Of a DNA stretch of 64,000 nucleotides, positions 7,020-53,325 are shown piece after piece; the stretch's first letter is position 1, and the number at the start of each line of letters is the position of its first letter. This stretch comes from an uncultured Candidatus Saccharimonadales bacterium. Its GTDB lineage: Bacteria; Patescibacteriota; Saccharimonadia; UBA4664. A model generated the notes under the pieces. It was given only the letters and a program-made list of their open reading frames with translations. It ran no database searches and was not told the origin of the DNA. The stretch lies in the NCBI GenBank assembly GCA_964609585.1, contig CAZSRA010000004.1, positions 27,417-91,416 of the forward strand, written 5' to 3'. The translations under genes were made by a program, and so were the position numbers.

Positions 7020-7029
7020 TTAGTTGAGA

Positions 7030-7587: not shown

Positions 7588-8850
7588 ATGGATTTAACTC
7601 CCAAACAGCAGACTTCTGAAGCGATTCGGCAAGCAGAATCGATCTTGATTCTGACGGGCCAACACCCTTCGGTTGACCAGGCGTCGGCCGTGGCAGCACT
7701 GGCGGCGATTTTGCGCAAGTTTGGTAAAAAGGTGAGTGCAGTGGTGAGCGATAACCCGCCAGCGGCGGTGCAATCGCTCGATCCGCATGCATTTGAGCGT
7801 GGGCTAGGTGGTTCGCGCGATTTTGTGCTGAAGGTGGATACCACGAAGGTCGAGGTTGATAAGCTCCGGTACGAGGCGGAAGGTGGCAAGCTCAATATCT
7901 ATTTGACGCCTTTTAAAGGTGGATTTGCTCCAAGTGATGTGACGTTTGGGTACGGCGCTTTTCATTATGATTTGGCGATCGTGCTTGGCGTGCCGACACG
8001 GGCGAGGATTGATCGGATTTATGAGCAGAACTTGGCTTCATTTGAGACGATTCCGATGGTGAATTTGGACTTTCACCGGTCGAATGAGAATTATGGCGCG
8101 GTGAATTTGATTGAGCCGAGTGCGTCGAGTTTGTGCGAGATGCTAGTAGCTTTGAGCGAGAGCTTGCAGAGCGGGATTATTGACGCGGAAATTGCGACGG
8201 CACTTTTGATGGGGATTGTGGCTTCGACAGACCGGTTTACCGCGACGCACACAAGCCCGAAGAGCCTAACGGTAGCGGCGCAGATGATGGCGGCAGGAGC
8301 TAGGCAACAAACCGTGGTACGGGCATTGTACCGCGAGGGTAAGGGAGAGTCGCGAGGGGAGCGTGGTGGCGACCGTGAACGTGGCGGGGAGCGTTCAGGC
8401 GACCGTGAACGTAGCGGTCAGGGTCAGCGTAATGCGGCGGCTCAGTCGCCTGTGGTACCGGCTCCGACGTCTGCTGCGGTCCGCGAACCGGCTGCTCAGC
8501 CTACCCCTGTGGTCCAGCCGACTCCTGCGGCTCCTGCTCCTGTTTCTGTGCCTGAACCGCCAGTAGTTGCGCCTGCGCCAGCTGCTGCGCCTGAGATGTC
8601 GACGCCTGCGACCTCGGTAGAGACTGCTCAGCCTGTGGCTCAAGAGCAAACGCGGCTCATGCAAGACGACGGTGCCATTATTCAGCCAGCTCATATAGAA
8701 ATGAGCGTACCAGAAGCAGTCCAGCCAGCTCAGATGGCGGCACCTCAGCCGCAGCTTGCCCCGGAGCGGCCCCAGGCTATGCCGGTAGCGGATTTTGCTG
8801 CGGCAGCCGAGATGTTTAATCGAGAACCGGTTGCAGACGACGCAAAATAG
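7588..8850 (+). CDS. DHH/DHHA1 family phosphoesterase (NrnA-like nanoRNase/pAp phosphatase) with long low-complexity RG/Pro-rich C-terminal tail
   Basis: DHH/DHHA1 motifs in first ~260 aa; C-terminal ~150 aa disordered (ERGGDRERGG repeats, PAAPAP). Confidence 0.75.
   Translation: MDLTPKQQTSEAIRQAESILILTGQHPSVDQASAVAALAAILRKFGKKVSAVVSDNPPAAVQSLDPHAFERGLGGSRDFVLKVDTTKVEVDKLRYEAEGGKLNIYLTPFKGGFAPSDVTFGYGAFHYDLAIVLGVPTRARIDRIYEQNLASFETIPMVNLDFHRSNENYGAVNLIEPSASSLCEMLVALSESLQSGIIDAEIATALLMGIVASTDRFTATHTSPKSLTVAAQMMAAGARQQTVVRALYREGKGESRGERGGDRERGGERSGDRERSGQGQRNAAAQSPVVPAPTSAAVREPAAQPTPVVQPTPAAPAPVSVPEPPVVAPAPAAAPEMSTPATSVETAQPVAQEQTRLMQDDGAIIQPAHIEMSVPEAVQPAQMAAPQPQLAPERPQAMPVADFAAAAEMFNREPVADDAK
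8365..8424 (+). repeat. 2 x 30-bp imperfect tandem repeat inside DHH gene encoding ERGGDRERGG/ERSGDRERSG
   Basis: gagcgtggtggcgaccgtgaacgtggcggg / gagcgttcaggcgaccgtgaacgtagcggt read directly. Confidence 0.8.
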
Positions 8851-8872
8851 GCTGACTGGTGAGGCCATTTTT

Positions 8873-9538
8873 ATGAACGGTCTTTTGTTGGTGAATAAGC
8901 CGGTGGGTATGAGCTCATTTGACGTGATTCGGCGGCTGCGGCGGCAAACGGGGGTGCGTAAGATTGGGCATGCAGGCACCTTGGACCCACTCGCGAGTGG
9001 ACTCATGTTGATGTTGTTTGGGACGGCGTGCAAAAAAGCAGAGCTACTAACTAAATTTGATAAACGCTATGAAGCGAAGATTCGCCTGGGTGCTAATAGT
9101 ACAACCGGGGATGCGGAGGGGGAGAAACTGCTGGTGAGTGAGCGGGTACCGACACTGGGCGAGGTTGAAGCGGCGCTTGCTCGGCTCACGGGTGAGGTTA
9201 CGCAGGTGCCGAGTATGTATTCGGCCATTAAGATTAACGGCAAGGAAGCATATAAGCGAGCGCGAGCAGGTGAGGCTGTTGAGATGCCGAGTCGGGTAGT
9301 GACGGTGTATGAGAATGTGATGCAGAACTATGAATATCCGGTTATCAGGCTAAATTCGAAGGTATCGAGCGGGACGTATATTCGGAGTTTGGCTCAGGAT
9401 CTGGGCGAACTTTTGGGGACGGGGGCGTATTTGGACGGTTTGGTGCGGACGGAGGTGGGGGATTATCGACTGGAGAATGCGATGGAGTTGGACGGCGCGG
9501 ATGGTGAAAATGTGGAAAAAGCCTTGCTCGATGTGTGA
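8873..9538 (+). CDS. truB: tRNA pseudouridine(55) synthase (short form, no PUA domain)
   Basis: LLVNKPVGMSSFDVIRR...GHAGTLDPLASGLMLMLFG catalytic Asp motif. Confidence 0.9.
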   Translation: MNGLLLVNKPVGMSSFDVIRRLRRQTGVRKIGHAGTLDPLASGLMLMLFGTACKKAELLTKFDKRYEAKIRLGANSTTGDAEGEKLLVSERVPTLGEVEAALARLTGEVTQVPSMYSAIKINGKEAYKRARAGEAVEMPSRVVTVYENVMQNYEYPVIRLNSKVSSGTYIRSLAQDLGELLGTGAYLDGLVRTEVGDYRLENAMELDGADGENVEKALLDV

Positions 9539-9870
9539 TTTGGAGTATCCTCATTTGTGGTGCCCACAATACGTCTCTTGACTTTTATAAATTAATATAG
9601 TAAAATATATAACGATCGATTCACGATTGGGCTTGCCTTAGGCGAGAACAGCCGTGAGACGACCGCGCCCGCACGGAGCTCCAGTCCCCGCCAACCCGTG
9701 TGGCCGCCTTGTACCTGTCTTTTATGCATAACGTGAGTTCTTGGACTGAGGCCGCTCTGGTTGACTTCAGTGAACTTACTTGTACGTTAGTTCAAAGGTC
9801 GGCGAGAATCCTCTCGTTTGATCAAGCCCCTATCTTGAGCTAGTGCCACTAGTTTCGGGAAGGACGCACC

Positions 9871-10095
9871 ATGACCACTACGGCTACCCGGCCCGGTTCG
9901 GCCTCGGCTTACGTCTGTGAGCACCCGACGCCCTGTCCGGAGGCCCACGCCCCCGACCGCGACGCCGCCTTCATCCGGGCGGCCCACCCGGAGCAGGGCT
10001 GGTCGTTGCTGTGCAACGGCATCGTCCTGTTCGAGGACACCGGCGAGCTCCTGCCCGACGGCAGGTCGATCGCCCCCCACCGGCCCACTGACTGA
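9871..10095 (+). CDS. DUF5999-like small protein (actinobacterial-type), 74 aa
   Basis: motif HPEQGWSLLCNGIVLFEDTGELLPDGRSIAPHRP recalled from Streptomyces-type DUF5999; ~68% GC with C-ending codons on + strand; SD GGAAGGA upstream. Confidence 0.6.
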   Translation: MTTTATRPGSASAYVCEHPTPCPEAHAPDRDAAFIRAAHPEQGWSLLCNGIVLFEDTGELLPDGRSIAPHRPTD

Positions 10096-10145
10096 TAGCC
10101 TACGGGCTGCCGGTGACGCTCGGGGAGGCGTACTCCCCACCTACG

Positions 10146-10184
10146 ACCCATCGACTACGCGCTTCGTGCGCGTGGTCGATGGGT
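10146..10184 (+). terminator. stem-loop after DUF5999-like gene (17-bp near-perfect stem, loop TTCG)
   Basis: acccatcgactacgcgc ttcg tgcgcgtggtcgatgggt. Confidence 0.5.
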
Positions 10185-10292
10185 TACCACCCCGAGTTAT
10201 CGATTGCAATACATCGATGTCTCAGGCTGGTTTTGTTCGATTGACCAGTGGCTATTGCCAGATACGTATAGAAGTGCTAATATACCCGAGTT

Positions 10293-10559
10293 ATGTTAAA
10301 ACCTGAATCTAAAACCAAGGTTATTTCAAGTCTTGCCACACACAAGACCGATACTGGCTCGCCTGAAGTGCAGGTCGGTATCTTTACTGAGCAGATTAAA
10401 GAGCTCACGAAGCATCTTCAAGTTCACAAAAAAGATGAGCACTCTCGTCGTGGCCTTTTGAAGATGGTGAGCAAGCGTCGCCGATTGCTTGATTACTTGA
10501 ACAAGCGTGACCCTTCTCGCTACCAGGACATTTTGAAGAAACTGGACCTGCGTCGGTAA
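10293..10559 (+). CDS. rpsO: 30S ribosomal protein S15
   Basis: 88-aa ORF with S15 signature. Confidence 0.95.
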
Positions 10560-37749: not shown

Positions 37750-38380
37750 GACAACGGTTAAAGCAGAGAATTTATCAAATAATAATTTGATGATTGTGAT
37801 GCTGTTGATATCGCTTCTGGCGGTGGGCGTGTCGGTGCTTGTGGGCAAATCTTTGGTGACAACGATCGTACGCGATACAACAGTAGTGAAAAAGGAAAGC
37901 GCAGCCGATAAACAGCTTTCGTCCGATAAAGATGCGGCGCCGAAGCTGGTAGACGCATACGGGCAGCTCAATGACAAGACTAAACTTGTGGCAGACGCAT
38001 TGCCAACAGAGCCGGATTTTCCGAGCCTGATCGTGACACTTGAGAATATGGCAAAAACAGCGGGTGTGACGCTTAAAAGTGTGACACCTGCTCAAGCGGG
38101 TGCGTCGTCGGTGGATGCGTCGGCCGGGGCTACGGCCGCTGCTTCTACGGACACAAGTGTGGCGCCGACTCCTCAGAGCTATAAGTTTGGCATTAGTTTT
38201 AGTGGGACGTACGCTAGTTTGACAAAGTTTTTGACGGTTATAGAGACTTCGGCCCGGCCGATGCGGGTGCTCGATATGCAGCTCGCTGGTGGCGGAAGCG
38301 CTTTGAGCGGGCAGTTTGACGTCGAAACCTTCTATCAAGGTAAGGCTCAATTGCCCTTCGGTAAGGAGACGGTGAAATGA
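37736..38380 (+). CDS. pilO: type IV pilus assembly protein PilO-like
   Basis: single TM, coiled coil, position after pilN. Confidence 0.6.
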   Translation: MAATKTTVKAENLSNNNLMIVMLLISLLAVGVSVLVGKSLVTTIVRDTTVVKKESAADKQLSSDKDAAPKLVDAYGQLNDKTKLVADALPTEPDFPSLIVTLENMAKTAGVTLKSVTPAQAGASSVDASAGATAAASTDTSVAPTPQSYKFGISFSGTYASLTKFLTVIETSARPMRVLDMQLAGGGSALSGQFDVETFYQGKAQLPFGKETVK

Positions 38381-38631
38381 AACAAAAAGATATTATCTCT
38401 TTAGTGTTCGCAGTTGGGATTCTTTTGGTGGCCGGCTACATTGGCTATACGCAGCTTTTGCCAAAGCAGGCTACGGGTCCAACCACGGTGACCGTAGACA
38501 AGGTAGGGGTAATTCCTGATAGCTTGGACGCTTCGGGGCTTGCGGCCATTAATGATCCCACCAAGGTGGTGGATTTTAATGCGCCGGTGGATTTGTCGGG
38601 CTTGAACAATCAAGCACCGTTTGGTCCCTGA
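38377..38631 (+). CDS. small single-TM protein in pilus operon (PilP-analogue candidate)
   Basis: 84 aa, overlaps pilO stop, TM helix. Confidence 0.4.
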   Translation: MKQKDIISLVFAVGILLVAGYIGYTQLLPKQATGPTTVTVDKVGVIPDSLDASGLAAINDPTKVVDFNAPVDLSGLNNQAPFGP

Positions 38632-38653
38632 AGGAGTTTGATAATGGTTAAGT

Positions 38654-40438
38654 TTGCGAGGTCTGATGCTATCGGTTGAGAGCCAGCAGCGGATAGAAGA
38701 ACTTCTACTTGAGGGTAAACTGCTCAAGCCGGAAGATCTTGAGACGGCTAAAGTGGATGCGCTAAAGGCGTCTAAGCCGCTCATTGCCTACATTGCTGAA
38801 AAAAATTTGGTGGGCGAAGAGGATCTGACGCGGATTTCAGCGCAGGCTATGGGGGTGCCTTACGCAAATTTGAACGCGTTAACGGTACCAGATGACATTA
38901 CGAAGTTGCTCGCGAAAGAGACGGCCGAAACGTATCTGGCGGTGCCATTTGGCATGCAGCAGGGACGGTTGGCCGTGGGTATGCTCGACCCGACCAATAT
39001 CCAGGCTGTGGACTTTTTGAGCCGCAAGGTGGGACACAACATTACGGTGTATTTGGCGTCGCGGGGATCGATTGATCATGTGCTGGCGCAGTTCCATAGC
39101 GATGTGGCGGCGGATGTGGCGAGCGCGATGGATGTCGCGAGTGTGGACGATCACCCGAAGGTGGAGGCAAAGAATGCCAAGGGGCTGCAGAATTTGGTGC
39201 AGGATGCGCCGATTACGCGCGCCTTGAACGCGATTTTGGATTATGCGGCGCAGAGCCGGGCGAGTGATATTCACATTGAGCCGCGCGAGCATGAGCTGAA
39301 GATTCGTTACCGGATTGACGGTATTTTGCAGGAGACGATGACGCTACCGAAGAGCATTGAGCCGGCGCTGATTTCGCGCATTAAGATTTTGAGCAATTTG
39401 CGGATTGATGAGCACCGGATTCCGCAGGACGGGCAATTTCAGATTAGCTCGAATGGGCACGAGATTGACCTGCGTATTGCGATTTCGCCAGTGGTGTGGG
39501 GCGAGCAGGTGGTGGTGCGGCTTTTGGACAAGAGCGGGACAGTGCTGACGCTGGAGAGTCTGGGTTTTCGAGGCCGGGCGGCGCGACTGATTGATGAGGG
39601 AATTCATAAGCCGCATGGGATGACGCTTTCGACGGGGCCGACGGGTTCGGGAAAGAGTACGTCGCTGTACGCGATTGTGCAGGAACTCAAGGATGTGTCG
39701 ATCAACATTGTGACGCTGGAAGATCCGGTGGAGTACAAGATGGACGGGATTAATCAGATTCAGGTGAATAATGATGTGGGCCTGACGTTTGCGAGCGGGC
39801 TGCGGAGTATTTTGCGGCAGGATCCGAATGTGGTGCTGGTGGGGGAGATTCGCGATAAAGAGACGGCGGATCTGGCGGTGCAGGCGGCGCTGACGGGACA
39901 CGTGGTGCTTTCGACGATTCACACGAACTCGGCGGCCGGGGTGTTGCCGCGTATGCTCGACATGGGGATCGAGCCGTTTTTGATCGCGAGTACGATTAAT
40001 ACGGTGATTGGGCAGCGGCTGGTGCGAAAATTGTGCGAGAAATGCAAGGAATCATTTGAAACGAACGAGGCGCAGACAAAGTCGATTATGGCGACTTTGG
40101 GCGATGTGCTGCCGAAGACGAAGAGTGAGCTGGAACGGGTAAAGAAGGACGTGGGCTATGAGGTGGTGCCAACGGCCGACCAGAAGACGTTTACGGTGTA
40201 CAAGGCGGTGGGTTGCAAGGAGTGTGTGAAGGGGTACAAGGGGCGGATTGGTATTTATGAGGTGTTTGCCATGACGCCGGCGATGGAGAAATTGCTGCTT
40301 GAGCATTCGACGACGAGCGAGGTGCAGAATCAGGCATCGAAAGATGGCATGCTAACGATGAAGCAGGATGGGTACTTTAAGGCTTTGAATGCGCTGACGA
40401 CTTTGGAAGAGGTAGCGCGGGTGGCGGCGGACTTTTAG
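38654..40438 (+). CDS. pilB: type IV pilus assembly ATPase PilB (GspE family)
   Basis: Walker A GPTGSGKST, GspII_E N-domain, tetracysteine motif. Confidence 0.9.
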   Translation: MRGLMLSVESQQRIEELLLEGKLLKPEDLETAKVDALKASKPLIAYIAEKNLVGEEDLTRISAQAMGVPYANLNALTVPDDITKLLAKETAETYLAVPFGMQQGRLAVGMLDPTNIQAVDFLSRKVGHNITVYLASRGSIDHVLAQFHSDVAADVASAMDVASVDDHPKVEAKNAKGLQNLVQDAPITRALNAILDYAAQSRASDIHIEPREHELKIRYRIDGILQETMTLPKSIEPALISRIKILSNLRIDEHRIPQDGQFQISSNGHEIDLRIAISPVVWGEQVVVRLLDKSGTVLTLESLGFRGRAARLIDEGIHKPHGMTLSTGPTGSGKSTSLYAIVQELKDVSINIVTLEDPVEYKMDGINQIQVNNDVGLTFASGLRSILRQDPNVVLVGEIRDKETADLAVQAALTGHVVLSTIHTNSAAGVLPRMLDMGIEPFLIASTINTVIGQRLVRKLCEKCKESFETNEAQTKSIMATLGDVLPKTKSELERVKKDVGYEVVPTADQKTFTVYKAVGCKECVKGYKGRIGIYEVFAMTPAMEKLLLEHSTTSEVQNQASKDGMLTMKQDGYFKALNALTTLEEVARVAADF

Positions 40439-40461
40439 ATTGGTTTGGTTTTGGGGCTAGG

Positions 40462-40552
40462 CCTAAGGTTTCAAAACGGAGGTTTTTGAGGCTTTGAAAG
40501 CTTAGGTCTGGCCGGTCCCGCAGATGCGGGGCCGGGCGCAGACGAAGGAGGG
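40462..40552 (-). repeat. cassette 3' repeat copy 1 (~95 bp: CCTAAGGTTTCAAAAC...CTTAGG imperfect hairpin + GC hairpin + purine-rich tail abutting stop codon)
   Basis: aligned by eye with copies at 41267 and 42238. Confidence 0.7.
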
Positions 40553-41167
40553 TCAGGCGATGGCGGCGTTCGTGTACTGGCAGAAGGATCTGACGGGTCG
40601 CTGACCGTTGAGCCAGTTGAACGCATCTTGGAGCGCGCCGGGGAGCGTCGTGATGACGAGTGGAGGTACGCCTCCGCTTGCCTGGTGGAAGATCGCTGGT
40701 GTGCACACGAAGCTCGTTTGCGAGGAGTTCGGTGTGACCCCGATCATCACCAGGCCGGGGTAGTCGGGATCGGCGGTGATGACGAGAACGAGGCAGTCAT
40801 TGCGCCAGCGCTCCAGCTTGATGCTGGGACTGGCCTGCGGACTGCTGCTGCCGGGATCCTGGTAATGGAACCCGGCGTTCGATAGTGCTTGCTGGTTGTC
40901 CCAGTTCAGGATCGTGGCGCCGACGACGGCGGGCGAGGTCGATGCGGGCCTGCAGGCGGCTTTGATCTTGATGTCGCTTGCCGAGATGCTCGCGGTCGCA
41001 TCGGTTGATGTGCTTGAGCTGGGCTTGTCGCCTGCGGTGGGCGTGGTCGTAACGACCGAGGTCGAGTGCGCCGGGTGGTTGTGGGCGCTGTAAGCGGCGA
41101 CGCTGGCACCCGTGAGAGCGACAGCTGCGAGGATCACAGCGGCCAGATTGCTACGCCGAGTTCGCAT
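40553..41167 (-). CDS. secreted protein (204 aa; Sec signal, S/T-rich linker, 4-Cys C-terminal domain), paralog of 41371 ORF, ~65% GC
   Basis: ATG at 41165-41167 with SD GAAGG; signal MRTRRSNLAAVILAAVALTGASVAA. Confidence 0.5.
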   Translation of the reverse strand: MRTRRSNLAAVILAAVALTGASVAAYSAHNHPAHSTSVVTTTPTAGDKPSSSTSTDATASISASDIKIKAACRPASTSPAVVGATILNWDNQQALSNAGFHYQDPGSSSPQASPSIKLERWRNDCLVLVITADPDYPGLVMIGVTPNSSQTSFVCTPAIFHQASGGVPPLVITTLPGALQDAFNWLNGQRPVRSFCQYTNAAIA

Positions 41168-41215
41168 ACGCGAGCCTTCTTTCTTCGTCTGGGTTGTCAA
41201 AAATGGACGATTAAT

Positions 41216-41244
41216 ATTTTAGAATAAACCATTTGATTTGTCAA
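41216..41244 (-). promoter_or_regulatory. near-consensus sigma70 promoter TTGACA-N17-TAAAAT (minus strand) for cassette gene a
   Basis: reverse complement of attttagaataaaccatttgatttgtcaa. Confidence 0.55.
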
Positions 41245-41266
41245 TTTTATGATAATTAAAAACAAG

Positions 41267-41370
41267 CCTAAGATTTCAAAAAAGGAGCTTGGGTGCTCTT
41301 GAAGCCTTAGGCTTGCGCCGGTCCCCGCGCGCCGAAGGCGCGGGGACCGGCATGCAAGACGGGAAGGGAA
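41267..41370 (-). repeat. cassette 3' repeat copy 2 with perfect 14-bp GC hairpin (gccggtccccgcgc...gcgcggggaccggc)
   Basis: hairpin and flanking CCTAAG...CTTAGG arms read directly from sequence. Confidence 0.7.
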
Positions 41371-42012
41371 CTAGCTCCTGGTGCAGTCGGACCCGCCGTT
41401 GGCGAGCCAGACGTCCAGCTTGGTGAGCGCGACGTCGACGTTTGCGGCGTCCAGCGGCAGGCTCACGTTGCACATGAACCCCTCCGGCCTCTTGGTGCGC
41501 GTGGAGTCTTCGTACATGCCGATCAGGAGGATCGTCGGGTTCGCGCCGGTGGTGACCAGCATCGAGGTGCAGCCCTGCGTCTCCTTCCAGTCCTCCCAGC
41601 CATCGGTGTCCGAGCTGACGTTGTGGAAGCCGAAGCCGGCGCTCGTGAGCGGCTGAGCGGGGATCTGGCCGAGCTTCGTACCGGAGGGCGGGCTGAACTG
41701 CGTTGCGGTGGGGCAGCCGGTGACCTGGTCGATCGTGGCCTCGAGGCCCTGGGCGGTCGGGTCCAGCGTGATCGCCGACGGCGACGTGGTCGGCACGGCG
41801 GTCGAGTGGGCGGGGGACGGGGAGGCCGCGGCGTTGGCCGACTGGGACGCGGAGGCGTTGGTGGTCGGCGCCGGAGCGACGACGTTCTGGCCGCCAGCGA
41901 AGCGCGGGTTGACGTTGGGCTTCGCGCCCCTGGATCCGCTGCAGGCAGCGGTGCTGAGGGCGGTGGCCAGGAACAGGCCGATGAGGCTGGAGGCGCGCTT
42001 CGAGATTCGCAT
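41371..42012 (-). CDS. putative lipoprotein (213 aa; lipobox-like LSTAAC, S/T/P/A-rich linker, Cys-containing C-terminal domain), paralog of 40553 ORF, ~66% GC
   Basis: shared motifs with paralog (GF.(Y/F)...; LV.T(A/G).P..L(L/V)IG; F(V/M)C; WL(N/A)G); SD GAAGGGAAC. Confidence 0.5.
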   Translation of the reverse strand: MRISKRASSLIGLFLATALSTAACSGSRGAKPNVNPRFAGGQNVVAPAPTTNASASQSANAAASPSPAHSTAVPTTSPSAITLDPTAQGLEATIDQVTGCPTATQFSPPSGTKLGQIPAQPLTSAGFGFHNVSSDTDGWEDWKETQGCTSMLVTTGANPTILLIGMYEDSTRTKRPEGFMCNVSLPLDAANVDVALTKLDVWLANGGSDCTRS

Positions 42013-42104
42013 GGTGTGCGAGTTCCCTTCTTAAAGTGTCTTGCGGGGTCAAGGTAGCGATCGCTCGAGTAAATCTAGGGACTACAATGAGCAGATCGTT
42101 AACT

Positions 42105-42133
42105 ACTTTAGCATAAGTAGTATCATTTGTCAA
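42105..42133 (-). promoter_or_regulatory. near-consensus sigma70 promoter TTGACA-N17-TAAAGT (minus strand) for cassette gene b
   Basis: reverse complement of actttagcataagtagtatcatttgtcaa. Confidence 0.55.
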
Positions 42134-42237
42134 ATTTACGCAAGCTGAGTTTCGAATGGATCGCTTAGTTGAGATTCTGGAAAGGGCTTGGAGAATAATT
42201 GCGAAGTATGTACGTAGCGGACATTTGACAGGGTAGA

Positions 42238-42338
42238 CCTAAGGTTTCAAAACTCTTGGGGTCTTGGTAGGCCGTTTGAAAACTTGGGTCTAGCCGGCCC
42301 CGCATGGTACACGGGGCCGGAGGTCAGATGAAGAAAGA
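42238..42338 (-). repeat. cassette 3' repeat copy 3 (hairpin ccggccccg...cggggccgg)
   Basis: hairpin arms and flanking CCTAAG motif read directly from sequence. Confidence 0.7.
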
Positions 42339-42500
42339 TCACCTGGAGAGGGACGGCCAGTGGCCGGTCCAGAAGGCCACTCCCGCCATCATCGCCAGAA
42401 CAAAGAGCATCCCGGCGGTGAAGAGGAGTTGTGGCTGTTGCGATGCAACGAGGCCGCGCCAGAAACCGCCGATGGCGGCTTTGAGGTTCTTGTTTCGCAT
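42339..42500 (-). CDS. small membrane peptide (53 aa) MRNKNLKAAIGGFWRGLVASQQPQLLFTAGMLFVLAMMAGVAFWTGHWPSLSR
   Basis: short form chosen because consensus promoter lies inside the longer 105-aa ORF. Confidence 0.35.
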   Translation of the reverse strand: MRNKNLKAAIGGFWRGLVASQQPQLLFTAGMLFVLAMMAGVAFWTGHWPSLSR

Positions 42501-42559
42501 TGCGAGACCTTGCTTTCTGGTTTGGGTTTGAAATGCTTGGGATGAGCAGACCGTCATAT

Positions 42560-42587
42560 ACTTTAGCATAAGTAGTTTAAATGTCAA
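42560..42587 (-). promoter_or_regulatory. near-consensus sigma70 promoter TTGACA-N16-TAAAGT (minus strand) for cassette gene c
   Basis: reverse complement of actttagcataagtagtttaaatgtcaa. Confidence 0.5.
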
Positions 42588-42670
42588 GTTTGCGACAATA
42601 CATAACCAGAGAAGGCAGTGTACAACCCCATACTCCTTGTGCTTTAATGGAGTCATCTTAGAGGTGAAAT

Positions 42671-43741
42671 GTGGAGAGAAGTGCCCTCAAAATTGAATTG
42701 ATGCTGGAGCAGGTGATTAAGTTTGATGCGTCGGACTTGCACCTTCAGGTGGGTCTGCCGCCGATGTTACGGGTGGATGGTTCACTCAAGCAGATTGAGG
42801 ACACGCCGGTACTTGAGCCTGCGGACGTAGAAAAGCTGGTATTTTCGATTTTGGACGATGATCAAAAAGAGATTTTGATCAAAGACAAGGAAGTGGATTT
42901 TTCGTTTGCGTTTGGAAACTATGGGCGATTCCGGGTAAATGCGTTTCACGAGCGCGGGAATGTGGCGGCAGCGCTGCGCCTGATTCCGAGCAAGGTGCGG
43001 ACATTAGAAGAACTCCAGATGCCGAAGGTGTTGCAGGACTTTACGAAGTTTCCGCGCGGGTTGGTGCTGGTGACGGGGCCGACGGGCTCGGGTAAATCGA
43101 CGACGCTCGCGGCTATGGTGGACAAGATTAATGCTGAGCAATCGAAGCACATTTTGACGATTGAGGACCCGATTGAGTACGCGCATAGTTCGAAAAAATC
43201 GATCGTGGTGCAGCGGGAAATTCACTACGATACGTACTCGTTTGCGGCAGCTCTACGCTCGAGCTTGCGGCAAGACCCGGATGTGGTGTTGATCGGTGAG
43301 ATGCGCGATCTTGAGACGATTGCGGCGGCAGTGACGATCGCGGAGACGGGGCACTTGGTGCTGGCCACCCTGCACACGAACAGCGCGGCTCAGAGTATTG
43401 ATCGTATGATCGACGTATTTCCGCCTCACCAGCAGCAGCAGATTCGGGTGCAGCTGGCAGGTATGCTTCAGGGGATTTGTTCGCAGCGGTTGGTGCCGGG
43501 GATTGGCGGTGGCCGCGTGATAGCGGCTGAGATTTTGGTGGCGACAGGTGCGGTGCGTAACATTATTCGTGAGGGCAAGACGCATCAGCTGGACGCAGTG
43601 ATTCAGACGGGCGCGGAATACGGCATGCAGAGCATGGACCGGCAGCTGGTGGCGCTCGTGCAAGAGGGCAAGATTACCTATGATGAGGCCAAGAATTTTG
43701 CGATTGATTTGCAAGAGCTCGACCGTTTAATGCGAGGTTAG
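42671..43741 (+). CDS. pilT: twitching motility ATPase PilT
   Basis: Walker A GPTGSGKSTT, 356 aa; alternative start 42701. Confidence 0.9.
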   Translation: MERSALKIELMLEQVIKFDASDLHLQVGLPPMLRVDGSLKQIEDTPVLEPADVEKLVFSILDDDQKEILIKDKEVDFSFAFGNYGRFRVNAFHERGNVAAALRLIPSKVRTLEELQMPKVLQDFTKFPRGLVLVTGPTGSGKSTTLAAMVDKINAEQSKHILTIEDPIEYAHSSKKSIVVQREIHYDTYSFAAALRSSLRQDPDVVLIGEMRDLETIAAAVTIAETGHLVLATLHTNSAAQSIDRMIDVFPPHQQQQIRVQLAGMLQGICSQRLVPGIGGGRVIAAEILVATGAVRNIIREGKTHQLDAVIQTGAEYGMQSMDRQLVALVQEGKITYDEAKNFAIDLQELDRLMRG

Positions 43742-45107: not shown

Positions 45108-45137
45108 GTTGGGATTGAGGGAATAATTGCGCCTTGT

Positions 45138-45236
45138 GGGCGGTTCGGGGATTGCTCCCCGAACCGCCCGGTTGGTGTGACTCGGGCCTAGGGTCCGAGT
45201 CACAGGACGGGGGTCCGGCTGAGGGTTACCAGCCGG
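45138..45236. terminator. three consecutive hairpins between convergent pilC and PD40-SGNH gene (14-bp, 9-bp, 7-bp stems)
   Basis: gggcggttcgggga ttgc tccccgaaccgccc; gtgactcgg...ccgagtcac; ccggctg...cagccgg. Confidence 0.55.
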
Positions 45237-47583
45237 TACCGGTGAGGACGGAGATCGCGGTTGCCGCGATCTTGGACTGACCGGTGGTGCTGCCGCTGCC
45301 CGGGGTGGGGTGCGGGTAGCCGTAGATCCGGTTGGTGGAGATGTAGCCACCTGCGACCGGGCTCGTGCCCAGGGCGGAGGTGGCGGTGAGGTCAACGTAC
45401 TTGACGTTGGTTCCGCTCACGTAGGTGTGGTCGCCGTTGAGCTCGACTACCACGCTGTGGATGCCCTTGGTGCTGCCGGAGTCGGCGTAGCAGGAGTTGC
45501 CAGTGCTATCGACGACATTCGGGTAGCCGACGTTCAGAATCCTGACACCCGGCGAGGCAGCGGCTGCCACCGTCTCCATGCCTTGCAGGTTGCTCTGGAT
45601 GAGCCCGGAAACGGTGAAGCCGGTGCCGGGGTCGGGAACCGTGAGGTTGTCGTAGACGGAGTTGGCGTCCGGGCAGTTGGTGATGCCGCTGGTGACGGCC
45701 CAGGGTTTGACGCTGGGCGTGTTCCAGTTCGCGAGGTACCAGTTGGCCAGGACGTCAGTCCAGTTGGTGTCGTCGGCGCCGCCGGTCATGCTGACGACGT
45801 TCCAGGAGTCGTACCGCGTGTATAACGCGAGACTGAGCTTTGCGGATTGGGTGTCTCCGCTGGCCCAGGCTGCGGTTCCCGGGGTCGCCAGGTCGCTGCC
45901 GAAACTACTGGTTGGGGCTCCGCTGCGAGCGATCAGGTAGGCCGGCATCCCATCGGAGCCGGTTGCTCCCATACTGATTTGCCAGACTGAAGGGGCGTGC
46001 GTGGAGCTGTTGTAGCTGGCCACGGCCGTGTTCACCCAGGATGCGGTCGCGTCGTTGGGCGTGGGGTCGTTGCTGGGGAGGTACGAAGCACCATCGGCGC
46101 AACTGATGGTCTTGCCGAGGTACTTCACTGCGGCGTCCGCTTGAGTGGGACACTGTGGCTGATCCGATGCCTCGTGGTGGCCGCTGCTGAACGAGTCGCC
46201 GACGGCAGCCCAGATGGGGGCCTTCGGTGTGTGTACCCTGAGAGGTGTGCTCCAGCTACCGGCGGTTCCGCCGGTGCTCACTGGGCGCACCCACAGGTAC
46301 CAGTCTTGGTCGGGCTGCGTGCCGCCGCCCCAGGTGGTGCCGGTACCCGAGTACTTGCCAAGGAAGCTGATCGGTCCCTTCTTCGTGCTCATGTTGGTGA
46401 TGGTTTGGAGGTAGCTCGTGTTCGGAGCGGTCGTGCTCGACGTCGACCATCCGAGGTCGAACCGCTGGTTGCCGGTGGCCGAGAGACTTACCGTCACCTG
46501 GCGGGTGTACGGTGCGTCGCTGGCCGACGGGGCACTGAACGTCGCGGTGCTATTGGACGGCGGGGCTGGGGGCCAGGCCGCGTTGACGAGGGAGAACCAC
46601 GACTGGACATGGCCGCTGGAGGCGGTCAGGTCGGTGGCAGTGCCACCGCTCGAGCTGATGCTGAACACGTCTTCGGAGCCGCTCGTCGTGTTGTTGCTGG
46701 CGAAATACACCGTGCTGCCGTTGGCCGACACGCGCGGCAGTTCGTCAGTGCGCGAGTAGGACTCCGTCGTCAGGGCGTTGCGGGTCACGGTTGTCGTGCT
46801 GAATCCGTTTGACGAACCAAAGTACGAAAGGCCGCCTCCGTTCTCATCACTGTTGAAGTAGATCCGCGATCCATCCGGCGACCAGGCAGGCTCGACATCG
46901 TTGTATGAGCCAAGCGCCGAAGTGAGGCGATGCTGGTTGGTGCCGTCTGCGTTCATGATCCAGATCTGTGTCTGGTTCGTGCCGCTCGGGTCGACGAGGT
47001 CGTAGGTGAGCTTGGTGCCGTCCGGTGACCACGCGACGTCGAGATCGCTCACGTTGTTGGTCGTGAGCTGAACCACACCGCCGGTGCCGTCCGACCTGAC
47101 CTTGTAGACGTTGGTGTTGATCCCGCCCGGCACGGAGTAGCGCCGGGTGAACGCGATCCAGGAACCGTCCGGCGACCAGTGCGGGTTGTCCTCGGTGAAG
47201 TTGTCCGTCGAACCGGCCTGGGTGAGGGTTGTGATACCCGATCCGTCCGAGTTGGCGAGGTAGATCCCCGAGTAGCTGGTTGGGTAGCCAACGTAGGCGA
47301 CCCGCGACCCGTCTGGGGAGACGTCCGGCTGGCTCGGCGATTGTGTGCTCTCGATGATCGTCGAGACCGTACCGGTGGAGCCATCGCGCTTGGCGATGAT
47401 GCCGTTTCCACCGGAATCCATACCGTCGTACATGATGTCGCCAGCGGCGACATCGGCGTGAGCCATCGGCGCCGTGGCGACGATGTTGAAGACCGGGAGT
47501 CCGATGACGGTTCCGATCGCTAGCGCGAAGGCGAGCAAGATTGCTCGCAGTCCGCTGCTAGGTGGTGTCGGTCGTTGAGACAC
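45226..47583 (-). CDS. secreted PD40 (TolB-like) beta-propeller + SGNH/GDSL hydrolase fusion protein (785 aa), ~65% GC
   Basis: GTG start with SD AAAGGAGT; signal peptide; four SPDGS(R/W/K)(V/I/L)x(Y/F) PD40 repeats; GDSL block IWAAVGDSFSSG. Confidence 0.6.
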   Translation of the reverse strand: MSQRPTPPSSGLRAILLAFALAIGTVIGLPVFNIVATAPMAHADVAAGDIMYDGMDSGGNGIIAKRDGSTGTVSTIIESTQSPSQPDVSPDGSRVAYVGYPTSYSGIYLANSDGSGITTLTQAGSTDNFTEDNPHWSPDGSWIAFTRRYSVPGGINTNVYKVRSDGTGGVVQLTTNNVSDLDVAWSPDGTKLTYDLVDPSGTNQTQIWIMNADGTNQHRLTSALGSYNDVEPAWSPDGSRIYFNSDENGGGLSYFGSSNGFSTTTVTRNALTTESYSRTDELPRVSANGSTVYFASNNTTSGSEDVFSISSSGGTATDLTASSGHVQSWFSLVNAAWPPAPPSNSTATFSAPSASDAPYTRQVTVSLSATGNQRFDLGWSTSSTTAPNTSYLQTITNMSTKKGPISFLGKYSGTGTTWGGGTQPDQDWYLWVRPVSTGGTAGSWSTPLRVHTPKAPIWAAVGDSFSSGHHEASDQPQCPTQADAAVKYLGKTISCADGASYLPSNDPTPNDATASWVNTAVASYNSSTHAPSVWQISMGATGSDGMPAYLIARSGAPTSSFGSDLATPGTAAWASGDTQSAKLSLALYTRYDSWNVVSMTGGADDTNWTDVLANWYLANWNTPSVKPWAVTSGITNCPDANSVYDNLTVPDPGTGFTVSGLIQSNLQGMETVAAAASPGVRILNVGYPNVVDSTGNSCYADSGSTKGIHSVVVELNGDHTYVSGTNVKYVDLTATSALGTSPVAGGYISTNRIYGYPHPTPGSGSTTGQSKIAATAISVLTGTGW

Positions 47584-47714
47584 GACTTACTCCTTTGGCT
47601 GTCAAGCGACAAACAATCTCGGCCCTTAGCCGAGAGAGGCCCGCTGCGAGGTACAGCGGACTAAGCGAATATGCGGGATTAAAGAGGATATGTAAATGAT
47701 TTTTGGTCTAGTAA

Positions 47715-51876: not shown

Positions 51877-52409
51877 TCATGAAGAAGTTTTTGGCTTCAC
51901 AGAGCGGTGATACGATTATTGAAGTGACGATGGCGCTGGCGATTTTGGCGGTAGTGCTGATGAGTGCGACGCTGGTGACGACGCGAGCTTTTCGGCTTGG
52001 GCAAACGGCGCGAGAGCGGACAACGATGGCGGAGGCAGCGCAGGGGCAGGCGGAAGAACTGCGGAGTTTTCGGGATAATCATACGTGGTCGGAGTTTTTG
52101 TATGGGGGTTCCATTGCGGGGGTGGCCTACAATGGGGTACTGACGATTCCGGGTGGTCCGGGATGTCATGTTTCGACGCCTTGTGCGCATATGTTGTATC
52201 GAACGTTTGCTGCGGGGGCGGTGGAATTTGTGCCTTCAGCCTCGCCGGTGGCGGGTCCGGTGCCTACGTCTTACTTGGAGATTTCGGTAACGCCGTTGAC
52301 GGCTCCACCGGTTACGAGCGTGAGCGTAACGGTGAGCTACGGCTTTACTGAGCTTGGTGGCTCCAATGTGGACGCGGGCCACATAAAGACAACGCTTACT
52401 CAGCTTTAG
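51870..52409 (+). CDS. minor pilin (PilV-like), prepilin motif G|DTIIE
   Basis: QSGDTIIEVTMALAILAVVLM. Confidence 0.5.
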   Translation: MLIMKKFLASQSGDTIIEVTMALAILAVVLMSATLVTTRAFRLGQTARERTTMAEAAQGQAEELRSFRDNHTWSEFLYGGSIAGVAYNGVLTIPGGPGCHVSTPCAHMLYRTFAAGAVEFVPSASPVAGPVPTSYLEISVTPLTAPPVTSVSVTVSYGFTELGGSNVDAGHIKTTLTQL

Positions 52410-53325
52410 GGCGGCTGTGGAACTTTTCGTGGACGGCTTTGAGCTGAGGATCGGTGATATGGGTGTAGATTTGAGTGGTAGCGATGTTGGCGTGTCCGAG
52501 AAGGCCCTGGACACTACGGATGTCGGCGCCGTTGATGAGTAAGTCGGTAGCGAAGCTATGGCGCAGGGTGTGGGGTGTGACGTCCTTGGTGATACCGGCA
52601 GCTACGGCGTAGCGTTTTACGAGGCGCTGGACGCTACGGACGGTGAGACGGGTATACATACCGCCTTCAGCGTCATCCTGGGTGCCGGAGTAGTGGATGA
52701 AGAGGGGTTTGCCGGAGTCTCCTCGGGTTTTTAGATAGCGATCGATCCAGGTGGCAGCTTGCTCGGAAATGAAGATGGGGCGGTCTTTTTGACCCTTGCC
52801 GCGGACCATGAATTCGCGGCGGTCGAGATTAATGTGGTCGATGTTTAGATCCACGAGCTCGGATACGCGCAGGCCGCCGGAAAAGAGGAGCTCGATGATG
52901 GCGCGGTCGCGCAGGCCTACGGGATTGCTCGTGTCGATGGCGTCGAGGAGGCGCTCGACTTCCTCGGTTTCGAGGAAGGTGACTTTGGGACGGACGGTTT
53001 TGGCGAGCTCGATTTTGGCGGAGTCGAGGGCTGCAATGTCCCGCTTGGCGAGGTATTTGAGGAAGCTCCGTAGGGCTATGAGGTGATAGTTTTGGGTGGT
53101 TTTGGTGAGCTCGTGGCCGGTGGAATCCTTGGTGCGATTGAGGTGGAGGCGCCATTGGCGGATCATTTCAGCGTCGAGTTTTTGGATGTCGCAGTCGCCA
53201 GAGAATTCGACTAGGCGCTGGAGGTAATGATCGTAGTTGCTGATGGTTTTTTGGCTACGGTTTTGCTCCACTTCGAGATGTTCGAGGAAGTCGGTGACGA
53301 GTTCGGAGAGAGGGAGCGTGGCCAT
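52396..53325 (-). CDS. xerD: tyrosine site-specific recombinase XerD/XerC family
   Basis: C-terminal HTLRHSFAT...LLGHANIATTQIYTH with catalytic Tyr. Confidence 0.85.
   Translation of the reverse strand: MATLPLSELVTDFLEHLEVEQNRSQKTISNYDHYLQRLVEFSGDCDIQKLDAEMIRQWRLHLNRTKDSTGHELTKTTQNYHLIALRSFLKYLAKRDIAALDSAKIELAKTVRPKVTFLETEEVERLLDAIDTSNPVGLRDRAIIELLFSGGLRVSELVDLNIDHINLDRREFMVRGKGQKDRPIFISEQAATWIDRYLKTRGDSGKPLFIHYSGTQDDAEGGMYTRLTVRSVQRLVKRYAVAAGITKDVTPHTLRHSFATDLLINGADIRSVQGLLGHANIATTQIYTHITDPQLKAVHEKFHSRPKAE

What the first reader, a model, noticed from the sequence alone, without database searches (positions are those of the whole stretch)
40462..42338. Conserved ~100-bp 3' module repeated three times, each abutting a cassette stop codon
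Copies at 40462..40552, 41267..41370 and 42238..42338 share three elements: (1) an imperfect CCTAAG(G/A)TTTCAAAA ... TTGAAA..CTTAGG hairpin, (2) a strong GC hairpin (perfect 14-bp stem in copy 2), and (3) a purine-rich tail ending exactly at the stop codon of the upstream minus-strand ORF. No other copy is visible elsewhere in the 64 kb. It could act as a terminator/3'-UTR stability element, or as a recombination or target site that defines the cassette boundaries. It is attC-like in concept, but the integron core sites GTTRRRY/RYYYAAC are not present and no integrase is adjacent.
Basis: seen in the sequence. Interest (0 to 1): 0.6.

Follow-up and report, generated by a model that had tools for sequence, protein, structure and literature searches.

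The report
Conserved double hairpin ending foreign gene cassettes
Three small foreign-looking genes inserted into the pilus operon of a Saccharimonadia (candidate-phyla-radiation) bacterium each end in the same ~100-base double hairpin. The same hairpin core closes the genes of a separate gene array in a distant Parcubacteria genome, so it is a real, rare, cassette-linked element whose role (RNA 3' end element or recombination site) is not settled.

Summary
The three copies exist at the stated coordinates, align at 71% mean column identity, and are far from chance: the exact 15-mer occurs 3 times against 0 in shuffles. Each folds into two adjacent hairpins and abuts a stop codon. No fourth copy exists in the 64 kb.

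The host is a Candidatus Saccharimonadia bacterium. The copies lie in a 2,167-bp insert (40448-42614) in the pilB-pilT spacer, which is empty in most close relatives. The insert holds three minus-strand, high-GC genes, each with its own near-consensus promoter.

Hairpin 1 (hp1) is conserved in sequence and has a conserved central mismatch. Its 13-bp core never covaries, but its 5-bp base does. Hairpin 2 (hp2) is conserved only as a GC-rich structure.

The only related copies found are five in a six-gene, single-promoter array of a Parcubacteria genome and one on a metagenome contig seen in two samples. They also follow GC-enriched orphan genes.

It matches no Rfam family. It fails the attC, REP, MITE and intrinsic-terminator definitions. 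No recombinase specific to the cassettes is nearby.

My best reading is an RNA-level 3'/intercistronic boundary element of accessory gene cassettes (confidence about 0.4). An attC-like recombination site remains possible (about 0.2).

The parts
40448..42614 (-). Whole 2,167-bp insert in the pilB-pilT spacer: three cassettes, each made of promoter, 5' UTR, ORF and 3' module.
   Evidence: BLASTN against relatives with an empty site. L025 7798-9947 matches window 38292-40447, and L025 9947-11073 matches window 42615-43740. The empty 62-66 nt spacer is seen in L025-28, L032 and L034-37.
40462..40506 (-). Copy 1, hairpin 1 (hp1): conserved AT-rich stem CCTAAG-N-TTTCAA(A) ... TTGAAA-N-CTTAGG with a central 1x1 mismatch and a 19-nt loop. 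It lies 14 nt from the left end of the insert.
40511..40537 (-). Copy 1, hairpin 2 (hp2): GC-rich stem GCCGGTCCCGC / GCGGGGCCGGGC.
40538..40552 (-). Copy 1 tail. It is C/U-rich in the mRNA (CCCUCCUUCGUCUGC, anti-Shine-Dalgarno-like) and runs from the ORF1 stop codon to hp2.
40553..41167 (-). ORF1, 204 aa. N-terminal hydrophobic stretch suggests a secreted protein (read by eye, no predictor run). GC 0.64, GC3 0.79. No family match.
41216..41244 (-). Cassette 1 promoter, TTGACA-17-TAAAAT (11 of 12 consensus positions).
41267..41311 (-). Copy 2, hp1 (19-nt loop). The stem is extended by CAAG/CTTG flanks.
41317..41351 (-). Copy 2, hp2: perfect 14-bp GC stem.
41352..41370 (-). Copy 2 tail. Together with the stop codon it is the right arm of a 7+10-nt inverted repeat whose left arm is the ORF2 ribosome-binding region (42020-42043).
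   Evidence: duplex -24.7 kcal/mol, 0 of 500 shuffles as good
41371..42012 (-). ORF2, 213 aa. Putative lipoprotein (LSTAAC lipobox read by eye, no predictor run). GC 0.70, GC3 0.95. Orphan, and a 27%-identical paralog of ORF1.
42105..42133 (-). Cassette 2 promoter, TTGACA-17-TAAAGT with TG extension.
42238..42288 (-). Copy 3, hp1 (25-nt loop).
42294..42320 (-). Copy 3, hp2: GC-rich stem CCGGCCCCG... / ...CGGGGCCGG.
42321..42338 (-). Copy 3 tail (UCUUUCUUCAUCUGACCU in the mRNA).
42339..42500 (-). ORF3, 53 aa, with one hydrophobic helix-like stretch (read by eye). No similarity to ORF1 or ORF2 seen by eye (not formally compared). Also called as a gene on Logan contig L001.
42560..42587 (-). Cassette 3 promoter, TTGACA-16-TAAAGT with TG extension. 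About 45 nt are shared with the cassette 2 promoter.

Best explanation
The module is the conserved 3' boundary of a rare family of accessory gene cassettes in Patescibacteria, and it most likely works in the transcript.

**Proposed mechanism.** Directly after the stop codon comes a short C/U-rich, G-poor spacer. Then a very stable GC hairpin (hp2) is followed by a sequence-conserved AU-rich hairpin (hp1). The two form a compact tandem stem structure.
- I propose this structure defines and protects the mRNA 3' end, acting as a barrier to 3' exonucleases and as a partial transcription block or processing site.
- It would thereby insulate each cassette from its neighbours and from the convergent pilB gene.
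- The C/U-rich tail may additionally pair with the cassette's own ribosome-binding region.
- Because the module is repeated, it would also be the substrate for unequal or homologous exchange that duplicates, deletes and reshuffles cassettes.

**Shown here.**
- The repeat, the fold and its position relative to stop codons.
- Compensatory changes at the base of hp1.
- The sequence-variable but always present hp2.
- Autonomous promoters on the three window cassettes.
- The insert-versus-empty-site relationship with relatives.
- Occurrence of the module in a second lineage.

**Inferred.** That the relevant molecule is RNA, that the module stabilises or attenuates transcripts, and that arrays evolve by exchange between modules.
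For: **Position and orientation.**
- In all nine family copies (3 window, 5 in L033, 1 in L011/L014) hp2 is gene-proximal, hp1 is distal, and 0-4 nt separate them.
- In the eight window and L033 copies the module starts 7-22 nt after a stop codon.

**hp2 behaves as a structure, not a sequence.** It has four unrelated sequences (the window type, two types in L033, one in L011). All form GC-rich stems of at least 10 bp, as expected for a structure-only RNA element.

**hp1 forms a helix.** Its basal 5 bp show compensatory changes (CG to AU, and so on). 90% of cells are paired against 83% in shuffles (0 of 500 shuffles reach that), and sliding the partner by one column destroys the pairing.

**The whole module is constrained.** Tail, hp2 and hp1 stay about 70% identical between cassettes whose proteins are only 27% identical or unrelated.
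- In L033, g1 and g6 are 25% identical as proteins. Two of the three paralogous cassettes (g2, g6) share 87% identity over a 120-nt stretch of 3' coding end plus module. The g1 3' end reads as similar in the sequence printed.

**The cassettes need insulation.** Each window cassette is an autonomous unit with a near-consensus promoter, lying antisense inside a conserved operon.

**5'-3' pairing.** The cassette 2 tail pairs with its own 5' UTR and ribosome-binding region at -24.7 kcal/mol, matched by 0 of 500 shuffles. Comparable 3'-UTR anti-SD pairing is documented for icaR (PMC3868564) and hbs (PMC5737220).

**No mobility machinery.** No recombinase or transposase specific to the arrays lies within about 10 kb of either array.
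Against: - **Not a canonical terminator.** No U-tract follows either hairpin, so canonical intrinsic termination is not supported.
- **Read-through must occur in L033.** Only one promoter precedes the six genes there, so the module cannot be a strong terminator in that array.
- **hp1 is too conserved and too rare for a simple RNA motif.** Its 13-bp core is invariant across two CPR classes while the genes, hp2 and flanks differ, yet the element is extremely rare. It appeared in 1 genome among 185,579 species representatives, with a pattern that matches 5 of the 9 known copies. It appeared on 1 metagenome contig family and nowhere in about 130 kb of close relatives. A motif read by a conserved host factor should be commoner. 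This pattern suits a mobile DNA element better.
- **Strand evidence is not decisive.** Wobble versus A-C mismatch counts do not favour the transcript strand clearly: L033 favours it and the window copies do not (and direct reading). Folding energies are similar or better on the non-transcribed strand.
- **No transcript data.** None were available to me.
Confidence: 0.4

Rival explanations
1. hp1 is a folded-strand recombination site, working like an integron attC but not belonging to that family. A tyrosine (Xer-like) or other recombinase acting in trans would excise and insert gene-plus-hairpin cassettes. hp2 would simply be the cargo gene's own terminator.
For: **Array architecture.** Copies occur only in co-directional arrays at the 3' end of each gene. 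In L033 a single upstream promoter drives [ORF-palindrome] units, as in an integron or CALIN (PMC4889954).

**Site anatomy.**
- The hp1 arms are conserved in sequence, while the loop varies from 6 to 101 nt and can carry nested structure, like the attC variable terminal structure (PMC2727003).
- The stem has a conserved interruption.

**Cargo turnover.** Unrelated ORFs carry the same module: g3 versus g4, and ORF3 versus ORF1/2 (by eye). Only hp1 is shared between two CPR classes.

**Gain and loss.**
- A related contig lacks exactly one cassette (gene lengths 226, 139, 148 against 225, 134, 138, 148).
- The window array is an insertion into a site that is empty in relatives, with hp1 at its very end.
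- Cargo is compositionally foreign in all three lineages.
Against: - **attC features fail.** The AAC/GTT triplets, the only conserved attC sequence (PMC2727003), are replaced by AAG/CTT. There are no extrahelical bases and no multi-nucleotide unpaired central spacer.
- **No dedicated recombinase.** None lies within about 10 kb of either array. The one tyrosine recombinase in the window scores as XerD/XerC (261 and 247 bits). It scores far below the integron-integrase cut-off (147 against 265 bits), and it is present in relatives without cassettes.
- **The hot spot does not depend on hp1.** The pilB-pilT spacer holds other cargo without hp1 in L023 and L029.
- **Junctions are uninformative.** They show no duplicated or half sites.
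- **Unexplained conservation.** The conserved tail, hp2 and spacing are not explained by this model. Window cassettes also carry their own promoters, unlike typical integron cassettes.
Confidence: 0.2
2. hp1 is a small selfish palindromic element (MITE, REP or Correia-like foldback) that inserted next to a terminator hairpin. It was then carried along as the genes duplicated, with any RNA effect being secondary.
For: - It has inverted-repeat arms of 13-18 nt with variable internal content, including an extra roughly 85-nt structured insert in two L033 copies.
- Its AT-rich composition differs from the adjacent GC-rich hp2.
- Sharing between classes requires horizontal spread.
- It always lies next to a pre-existing type of hairpin.
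Against: - **Not dispersed.** All copies lie in one array per genome. There are none in the other 62 kb of the window, none in about 130 kb of relatives, and no other match in the 1.19-Mb Parcubacteria chromosome.
- **No mobility hallmarks.** No target-site duplication and no transposase.
- **Evidence of selection.** Purifying selection or homogenisation extends over the whole module, and the stem base covaries.
Confidence: 0.12
3. There is no specific function. The similarity is a by-product of local tandem duplication of one gene with its 3' flank. Gene conversion keeps the flanks alike while the secreted-protein genes diverge quickly.
For: - ORF1 and ORF2 are paralogs, and so are g1 and g6; g2 and g5 look like members of the same family by eye (shared PTQAL N-terminus).
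- Modules are more alike within a genome than between genomes.
- Promoters of cassettes 2 and 3 also share about 45 nt.
Against: - It cannot explain the same hp1 core in Saccharimonadia and Parcubacteria next to unrelated genes and unrelated hp2.
- It cannot explain the compensatory changes at the stem base.
- It cannot explain why the conserved block starts exactly at the stop codon.
Confidence: 0.1
4. The module is read on the + strand as a 5' leader (hp1, hp2, then a Shine-Dalgarno-like purine tract) for small antisense ORFs starting at 40561, 41381 and 42328.
For: GGAGG- or GAAGG-like tracts lie 4-10 nt before ATG or GTG codons on the + strand in all three copies.
Against: - The + strand ORFs are 14, 91 and 68 aa, and their translations show no similarity to each other by eye.
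- Codon-position GC favours the minus-strand frames, clearly for ORF1 and ORF2 and only weakly for ORF3.
- No + strand promoter precedes the modules.
- The L033 tails are not Shine-Dalgarno-like.
Confidence: 0.03

Closest known systems
Integron attC sites and CALIN arrays (clusters of attC sites lacking an integrase)
   Same: - An imperfect palindrome at the 3' end of each gene in a co-directional array.
- Conserved outer and inner stem boxes with a loop of very variable length.
- Sites are more alike within an array than between arrays.
- Cargo is mostly orphan genes.
- One array (L033) is driven by a single upstream promoter.
- No integrase is nearby, as in CALINs (PMC4889954, PMC2727003).
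   Different: - The AAC/GTT triplets are replaced by AAG/CTT.
- There are no extrahelical bases, and a symmetric 1x1 pyrimidine-pyrimidine mismatch takes the place of a 5-nt unpaired spacer.
- An extra GC hairpin and a conserved tail lie between the gene and the palindrome.
- Window cassettes carry their own promoters.
- No IntI-type integrase is present.
- The host clade (Patescibacteria) is not, to my knowledge, one in which integrons have been described; my literature search found nothing relevant.
Phage 'morons' (independent promoter-gene-terminator units added between conserved genes)
   Same: Each window cassette is an independent transcription unit of atypical base composition, inserted between two genes of a conserved operon. 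It has a strong promoter in front and a hairpin element behind (definition in PMC3594210).
   Different: - The cassettes are in a chromosomal type IV pilus operon, not a prophage.
- The 3' element is not a canonical U-tract terminator, and it is a conserved, shared module rather than a gene-specific terminator.
REP/BIME and Correia-type extragenic palindromes (repeats that end up as mRNA stabilisers, terminators or RNase III sites)
   Same: Repeated palindromic units downstream of genes that fold in the transcript. They can protect upstream mRNA and promote rearrangements (my own knowledge of these families).
   Different: Those families are dispersed in tens to hundreds of copies per genome. 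This element is confined to one array per genome and is nearly absent from public genomes.
3'-UTR anti-Shine-Dalgarno elements (S. aureus icaR, B. subtilis hbs)
   Same: A C/U-rich stretch just after the stop codon is complementary to the same mRNA's ribosome-binding region. This is strong for cassette 2 (PMC3868564, PMC5737220).
   Different: The complementarity is significant in only one of the three cassettes. There is no experimental evidence, and the icaR element is not part of a repeated module.

Membership tests
Integron attC site | Conserved AAC (R'') and GTT (R') triplets at the base of the stem. These are the only conserved attC sequence (PMC2727003). | tested here: not met
   All nine copies have AAG and CTT at that position (CCYAAG ... 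CTTRGG). Six of the seven positions of RYYYAAC/GTTRRRY fit.
Integron attC site | Extrahelical bases in the L stem and an unpaired central spacer between the R and L boxes. | tested here: not met
   The stem is interrupted only by one symmetric 1x1 mismatch (column 12/33). No bulged bases are present.
Integron attC site | Variable terminal structure, and position at the 3' end of cassette ORFs in co-directional arrays. | tested here: met
   Loops are 6-101 nt. Eight of nine copies follow a stop codon by 7-22 nt. Arrays hold 3 and 5 copies.
Integron (complete) | An IntI-type integrase with attI next to the array. | tested here: not met
   The nearest tyrosine recombinase (52396-53325) scores as XerD/XerC. 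Its integron-integrase score is 147 bits against a 265-bit cut-off. It is conserved in relatives without cassettes. None is present within about 10 kb of the L033 array.
Integron attC site | Recombination by an integrase through the folded bottom strand. | not testable with these tools
   This needs a recombination assay, or junction or circle reads.
REP/BIME-type dispersed extragenic palindromes | Many copies dispersed in unrelated intergenic regions of the genome. | tested here: not met
   There are three copies in 64 kb, all within 2 kb. None were found in about 130 kb of close relatives. In the 1.19-Mb Parcubacteria chromosome only the array matched.
MITE | Terminal inverted repeats plus target-site duplication, with dispersed copies. 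| tested here: not met
   Inverted arms are present. No flanking direct repeats are common to the copies, and the copies are not dispersed.
Intrinsic (factor-independent) terminator | A GC-rich stem followed directly by a U-tract. | tested here: not met
   The scan finds none at the modules. hp2 is followed directly by hp1. Only copy 2 has a T-run after hp1. Native terminators in this clade do have U-tracts (rpsO 3' end; L029).
Any Rfam RNA family | A covariance-model match at or near the gathering score. | tested here: not met
   There were no hits at the gathering score in the window. In E-value mode only noise appeared in the window and in the related loci.
Moron-like autonomous transcription unit | Own promoter, own 3' hairpin, atypical composition, and insertion between conserved genes. 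| tested here: met
   Promoters match 10-11 of 12 consensus positions. GC3 is 0.79-0.95 against 0.67-0.69 for host genes. The empty site is seen in relatives. A phage context is absent.

The most novel reading that the evidence does not exclude
hp1 is the recombination site of a previously unrecognised, non-integron gene-cassette system of candidate-phyla-radiation bacteria. In this reading, a folded hairpin with RYYYAAG/CTTRRRY boxes is used by a Xer-type or unknown recombinase. The recombinase would capture foreign (for example host-derived, high-GC) genes, together with their terminators, into expressed arrays.
Probability: 0.17. Interest if true: 0.85.

Novelty: new variant of a known kind. 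Interest (0 to 1): 0.5.

Why it matters
Patescibacteria have tiny genomes and depend on host bacteria. How they acquire and express new surface or accessory genes is poorly understood.

Here, compositionally foreign genes sit in conserved operons as ready-made expression units. One elsewhere in the window belongs to DUF5999, a family I recall as actinobacterial. One class of these units shares a conserved hairpin module with an array in a distant class.

- **If the module is an RNA 3' end element,** it is a portable insulator or stabiliser for a clade with no characterised terminators. It would be useful for the new genetic systems in Saccharibacteria.
- **If it is a recombination site,** it would be a second, independent invention of the integron principle.

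Either outcome can be tested directly with 3'-end RNA sequencing and with junction analysis in metagenomes.

Tried and rejected
**Known families and collections.**
- Rfam gave nothing, at the gathering score and in E-value mode, on the window region and on related loci.
- BLASTN of the module and of the whole insert against phage and plasmid collections gave nothing except a 56-nt Streptomyces plasmid match inside ORF2.
- The IMG/VR pattern scan gave only a chance hit inside a phage gene.

**Pattern hits judged unrelated.** These were in low-GC Paceibacteria 16S rRNA (apparently an extension of helix 40, placed by eye), in tRNA-Cys and tRNA-Gly trailers (L022), and in L007 and L015. Position 7 is paired there, there is no hp2 or tail, and the context differs. 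A link is not excluded.

**Cargo function.**
- ORF2 has no homolog among 5.8 billion proteins.
- Pfam and NCBIfam gave nothing for ORF1-3. Pfam gave nothing for the L003/L033 cassette proteins beyond one sub-threshold coiled-coil hit.
- AlphaFold2 on the ORF2/ORF1 pair gave pLDDT 40, which is unusable, so no fold search was run.

**Look-ups that failed.** Exact-protein look-ups of PilT and ORF1 found no record. The contig showing the cassette indel (P0123) has no DNA available.

**Ideas considered and dropped, from direct reading and my own knowledge of the families.**
- SECIS: the stop codons are TGA, TAG and TGA, and TAA or TAG in L033.
- DGR target hairpin: the 3' coding ends read nothing alike, so no variable region is apparent; no reverse transcriptase turned up among the ORFs I scanned, but I did not scan every ORF.
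- DNA-uptake sequence: only 3 copies exist.
- Invertible promoter: the loops are too short and hold no promoter.
- CRISPR, type III toxin-antitoxin repeats and retron RNA: the anatomy is wrong.
- Strand choice from wobble pairs and folding energies: inconclusive.
Full report
**1. The observation**

The sequence at 40462-40552, 41267-41370 and 42238-42338 is as described.
- The three copies align at 71% mean column identity.
- The 15-mer CCTAAGRTTTCAAAA occurs exactly three times in the window, against zero in 100 dinucleotide-preserving shuffles.
- With up to three mismatches, six of the seven hits are the two arms of the three copies.
- Each copy folds on either strand into two directly adjacent hairpins, with z-scores of -3.7 to -8.0. 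Copy 2 has the perfect 14-bp GC stem.
- Each + strand purine-rich tail ends at a minus-strand stop codon.
- A fuzzy arm search and a covariance model of hairpin 1 find no further copy in the 64 kb.

**2. Context in the window**

The window comes from a Candidatus Saccharimonadia (TM7/Patescibacteria) genome. Its PilT is 95% identical to proteins that NCBI names from that class.

The three copies lie between pilB (38654-40438) and pilT (42671-43741), inside a type IV pilus cluster.

On the minus strand there are three ORFs:

| ORF | Coordinates | Length | Features (read by eye) |
|---|---|---|---|
| ORF1 | 40553-41167 | 204 aa | N-terminal hydrophobic stretch, possible signal peptide |
| ORF2 | 41371-42012 | 213 aa | lipobox-like LSTAAC motif |
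| ORF3 | 42339-42500 | 53 aa | one hydrophobic helix-like stretch |

- ORF1 and ORF2 are 27%-identical paralogs.
- Their GC3 is 0.79-0.95 with C>G on the coding strand. Host genes have GC3 of 0.67-0.69 with G>C.
- The three best sigma-70 promoter matches in 10.5 kb are the three sites just upstream of these ORFs. Each cassette is therefore promoter, UTR, ORF and 3' module.
- ORF2 has no homolog in 5.8 billion proteins, and none of the ORFs matches a family.

**3. The array is an insertion**

Close relatives (PilT 92-94% identical) have pilB and pilT 62-66 nt apart: L025-28, L032, L034-37.

BLASTN places the window insert at 40448-42614. hp1 of copy 1 lies 14 nt from its left end.

Two other relatives have different cargo at the same spot:
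- L023/24 carry mazE/PIN plus a 128-aa high-GC minus-strand ORF.
- L029/30 carry two other ORFs.

Their high-GC ORFs end in a C-rich spacer and a GC hairpin but lack hp1.

The spacer is therefore a hot spot whose use does not depend on hp1. The window junctions read against the empty L025 spacer show no duplication.

**4. Anatomy of the module, in the transcript orientation**

The order is stop codon, a 7-22 nt C/U-rich and G-poor tail, hp2, 0-4 nt, then hp1.

The hp1 consensus is (G)ACCYAAG-Y-YTTCAA ... loop ... TTGAAR-Y-CTTRGG(TC).

On the nine family copies:
- The 13 core pairs never covary. They are invariant, or differ only by wobble or A-C mismatch.
- Position 7 is a non-Watson-Crick position in all nine copies. 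It is a pyrimidine-pyrimidine mismatch in eight and a G-U wobble in copy 2.
- The five basal pairs show compensatory changes.
- 90% of cells are paired against 83% in shuffles, and 0 of 500 shuffles reach that.

So the helix forms in a single strand, and its core is constrained in sequence.

hp2 is the opposite. It has four unrelated sequences, always forming a strong GC stem.

**5. Relatives elsewhere**

One scan each of 185,579 species genomes and of the JGI metagenomes gave only two true relatives.

*The Parcubacteria array.* A Parcubacteria chromosome (OY970378.1; loci L003 and L033) has one promoter (6602-6630) followed by six co-directional genes (6700-10390).
- Five modules follow genes 1, 2, 3, 4 and 6.
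- Their hp1 loops are 6, 88, 32, 29 and 101 nt.
- The four internal modules are each followed by a conserved 30-nt leader and a ribosome-binding site.
- No promoter-like site lies between the genes, so the module must allow read-through there.
- Genes 1 and 6 are paralogs; genes 2 and 5 look like members of the same family by eye. Genes 3 and 4 are unrelated to each other, yet share the same hp2 type.
- A related contig lacks exactly one cassette.

*The metagenome contig.* L011/L014 has one copy. Its hp1 shares even the start of the loop with one L033 copy.

In all three lineages the genes in front of the module have raised GC and GC3 and C>G skew relative to their neighbours.

No recombinase lies within about 10 kb of the L033 array.

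**6. Other pattern hits**

Other hits were a 16S rRNA stem (apparently an extension of helix 40) in low-GC Paceibacteria, tRNA trailers in L022, and L007 and L015.
- They share the arm sequence by construction of the search.
- Position 7 is paired in them, and they lack hp2 and the tail.
- I treat them as probably unrelated AT-rich stems.

**7. What it is not**

- **Not an Rfam family**.
- **Not a canonical terminator.** There is no U-tract, while native genes of this clade do use U-tract terminators.
- **Not a dispersed REP or MITE**.
- **Not an attC.** The AAC/GTT triplets are AAG/CTT, there are no extrahelical bases, and there is no IntI. The only tyrosine recombinase in the window is Xer-type and is conserved in relatives without cassettes. 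attC features are taken from PMC2727003 and PMC4889954.

**8. Weighing the mechanisms**

*For an RNA-level 3' or intercistronic element.*
- The fixed order and spacing after stop codons.
- The structure-only conservation of hp2.
- Covariation at the base of hp1.
- Conservation of the whole module, including the tail, between cassettes whose proteins have diverged or are unrelated.
- The need to insulate autonomous antisense cassettes inside an operon.
- A significant complementarity between the cassette 2 tail and its own ribosome-binding region, for which icaR and hbs are precedents (PMC3868564, PMC5737220).
- The absence of any mobility gene.

*For a DNA-level recombination site.*
- Copies are confined to arrays.
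- The single-promoter array resembles an integron.
- The arms are invariant while the loop is variable.
- Unrelated ORFs share one module.
- There is a cassette presence/absence difference between related genomes.
- Only hp1 is shared between two CPR classes, even though the element is extremely rare.

Common RNA 3' elements have a much higher prior than a new recombination system, and no recombinase is present. I therefore rank the RNA boundary element first (about 0.4) and the attC-like site second (about 0.2). A hitch-hiking palindromic element (about 0.12) and neutral duplication with gene conversion (about 0.1) rank lower.

**9. Verdict**

It is the shared 3' end of moron-like accessory gene cassettes in Patescibacteria.

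It is rare, and by the tests run here it belongs to none of the families tested here. It is mechanistically unresolved between an RNA end-forming or stabilising element and a recombination site. Interest is moderate, at 0.5.

Noticed in passing
window 9570-10230 (+): A fourth kind of high-GC insert lies between truB and rpsO. It is a 74-aa DUF5999 protein (Pfam E=2.7e-32; I recall the family as actinobacterial) at 9871-10095. It has its own TTGACT-17-TAAAAT promoter (9579-9610, read by eye), a roughly 260-nt leader and an 18-bp GC hairpin (10145-10186). This looks like a gene taken from an actinobacterial host.
   Followed up: partly
window 45109-47714 (-): The 785-aa PD40 beta-propeller gene (45226-47583) is also an insertion relative to L025, L031 and L032, this time in the pilC-pilin spacer. 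It comes with its upstream region and a 3' end made of a C-rich tail and two tandem hairpins, without hp1. L023/24 carry a diverged copy.
   Followed up: partly
window 41354-41372 and 42020-42043: ORF2 is bracketed by an inverted repeat: GCAAGAC..GAAGGGAACT against AGTTCCCTTC..GTCTTGC. It joins the ribosome-binding region to the stop codon and tail (-24.7 kcal/mol, 0 of 500 shuffles). Cassette 1 has a 9-nt version (CAGACGAAG), and cassette 3 is weak. This could be 5'-3' UTR pairing or the arms of an invertible or mobile segment.
   Followed up: partly
window 41216-41244, 42105-42133, 42560-42587, 9579-9610; L023 ~9890-9930; L029 ~700-760: The high-GC inserts with a recognisable promoter (the three cassettes, the DUF5999 insert, L023, L029) are driven by very similar AT-rich, near-consensus promoters (TTGACA-17-(TG)CTAAART). 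In the window these are often followed by TAACGATC near the predicted start. How foreign ORFs come to sit behind such uniform promoters is unexplained.
   Followed up: no
L002, L008, L010, L016-L021 (16S rRNA genes of low-GC Paceibacteria): What I take by eye to be helix 40 of the 16S rRNA is extended by a roughly 20-bp stem, CCCCG-CCTAAGTTTTCAA...TTGAAAAYTTAGG-CGGGG. Its arms match hp1 except that the central position is paired. It is probably coincidental, but an rRNA-mimic relationship was not excluded.
   Followed up: partly
L022 5904-5989 and 6065-6140: tRNA-Cys and tRNA-Gly are each followed by a long hairpin, CCCGCCCAAATTTTCAAG...CTTGAAAAYTTAG(G/T)CGGGCG, with similar arms. An ORF follows that looks like a GIY-YIG-type nuclease by eye (not scanned).
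   Followed up: no
L033 7940-8025 and 10446-10545; L003 1139-1156: Two hp1 loops carry an extra roughly 85-100-nt structured insert flanked by TTGTCA/TGACAA. Its 18-nt hairpin CCCGGATCGTGGTCCGGG recurs once elsewhere in the same genome. It may be a nested small element.
   Followed up: partly
window 52396-53325 (-): A Xer-type tyrosine recombinase sits at the end of the pilus cluster and is conserved in all relatives examined. It passes the NCBIfam XerA_Arch cut-off (240 against 220 bits), a model labelled 'site-specific tyrosine recombinase/integron integrase'. It fails the integron-integrase models.
   Followed up: partly
L023/L024 8704-9359: A mazE/PIN toxin-antitoxin pair occupies the same pilB-pilT spacer in another relative. 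This shows that the spacer accepts diverse accessory cargo.
   Followed up: no
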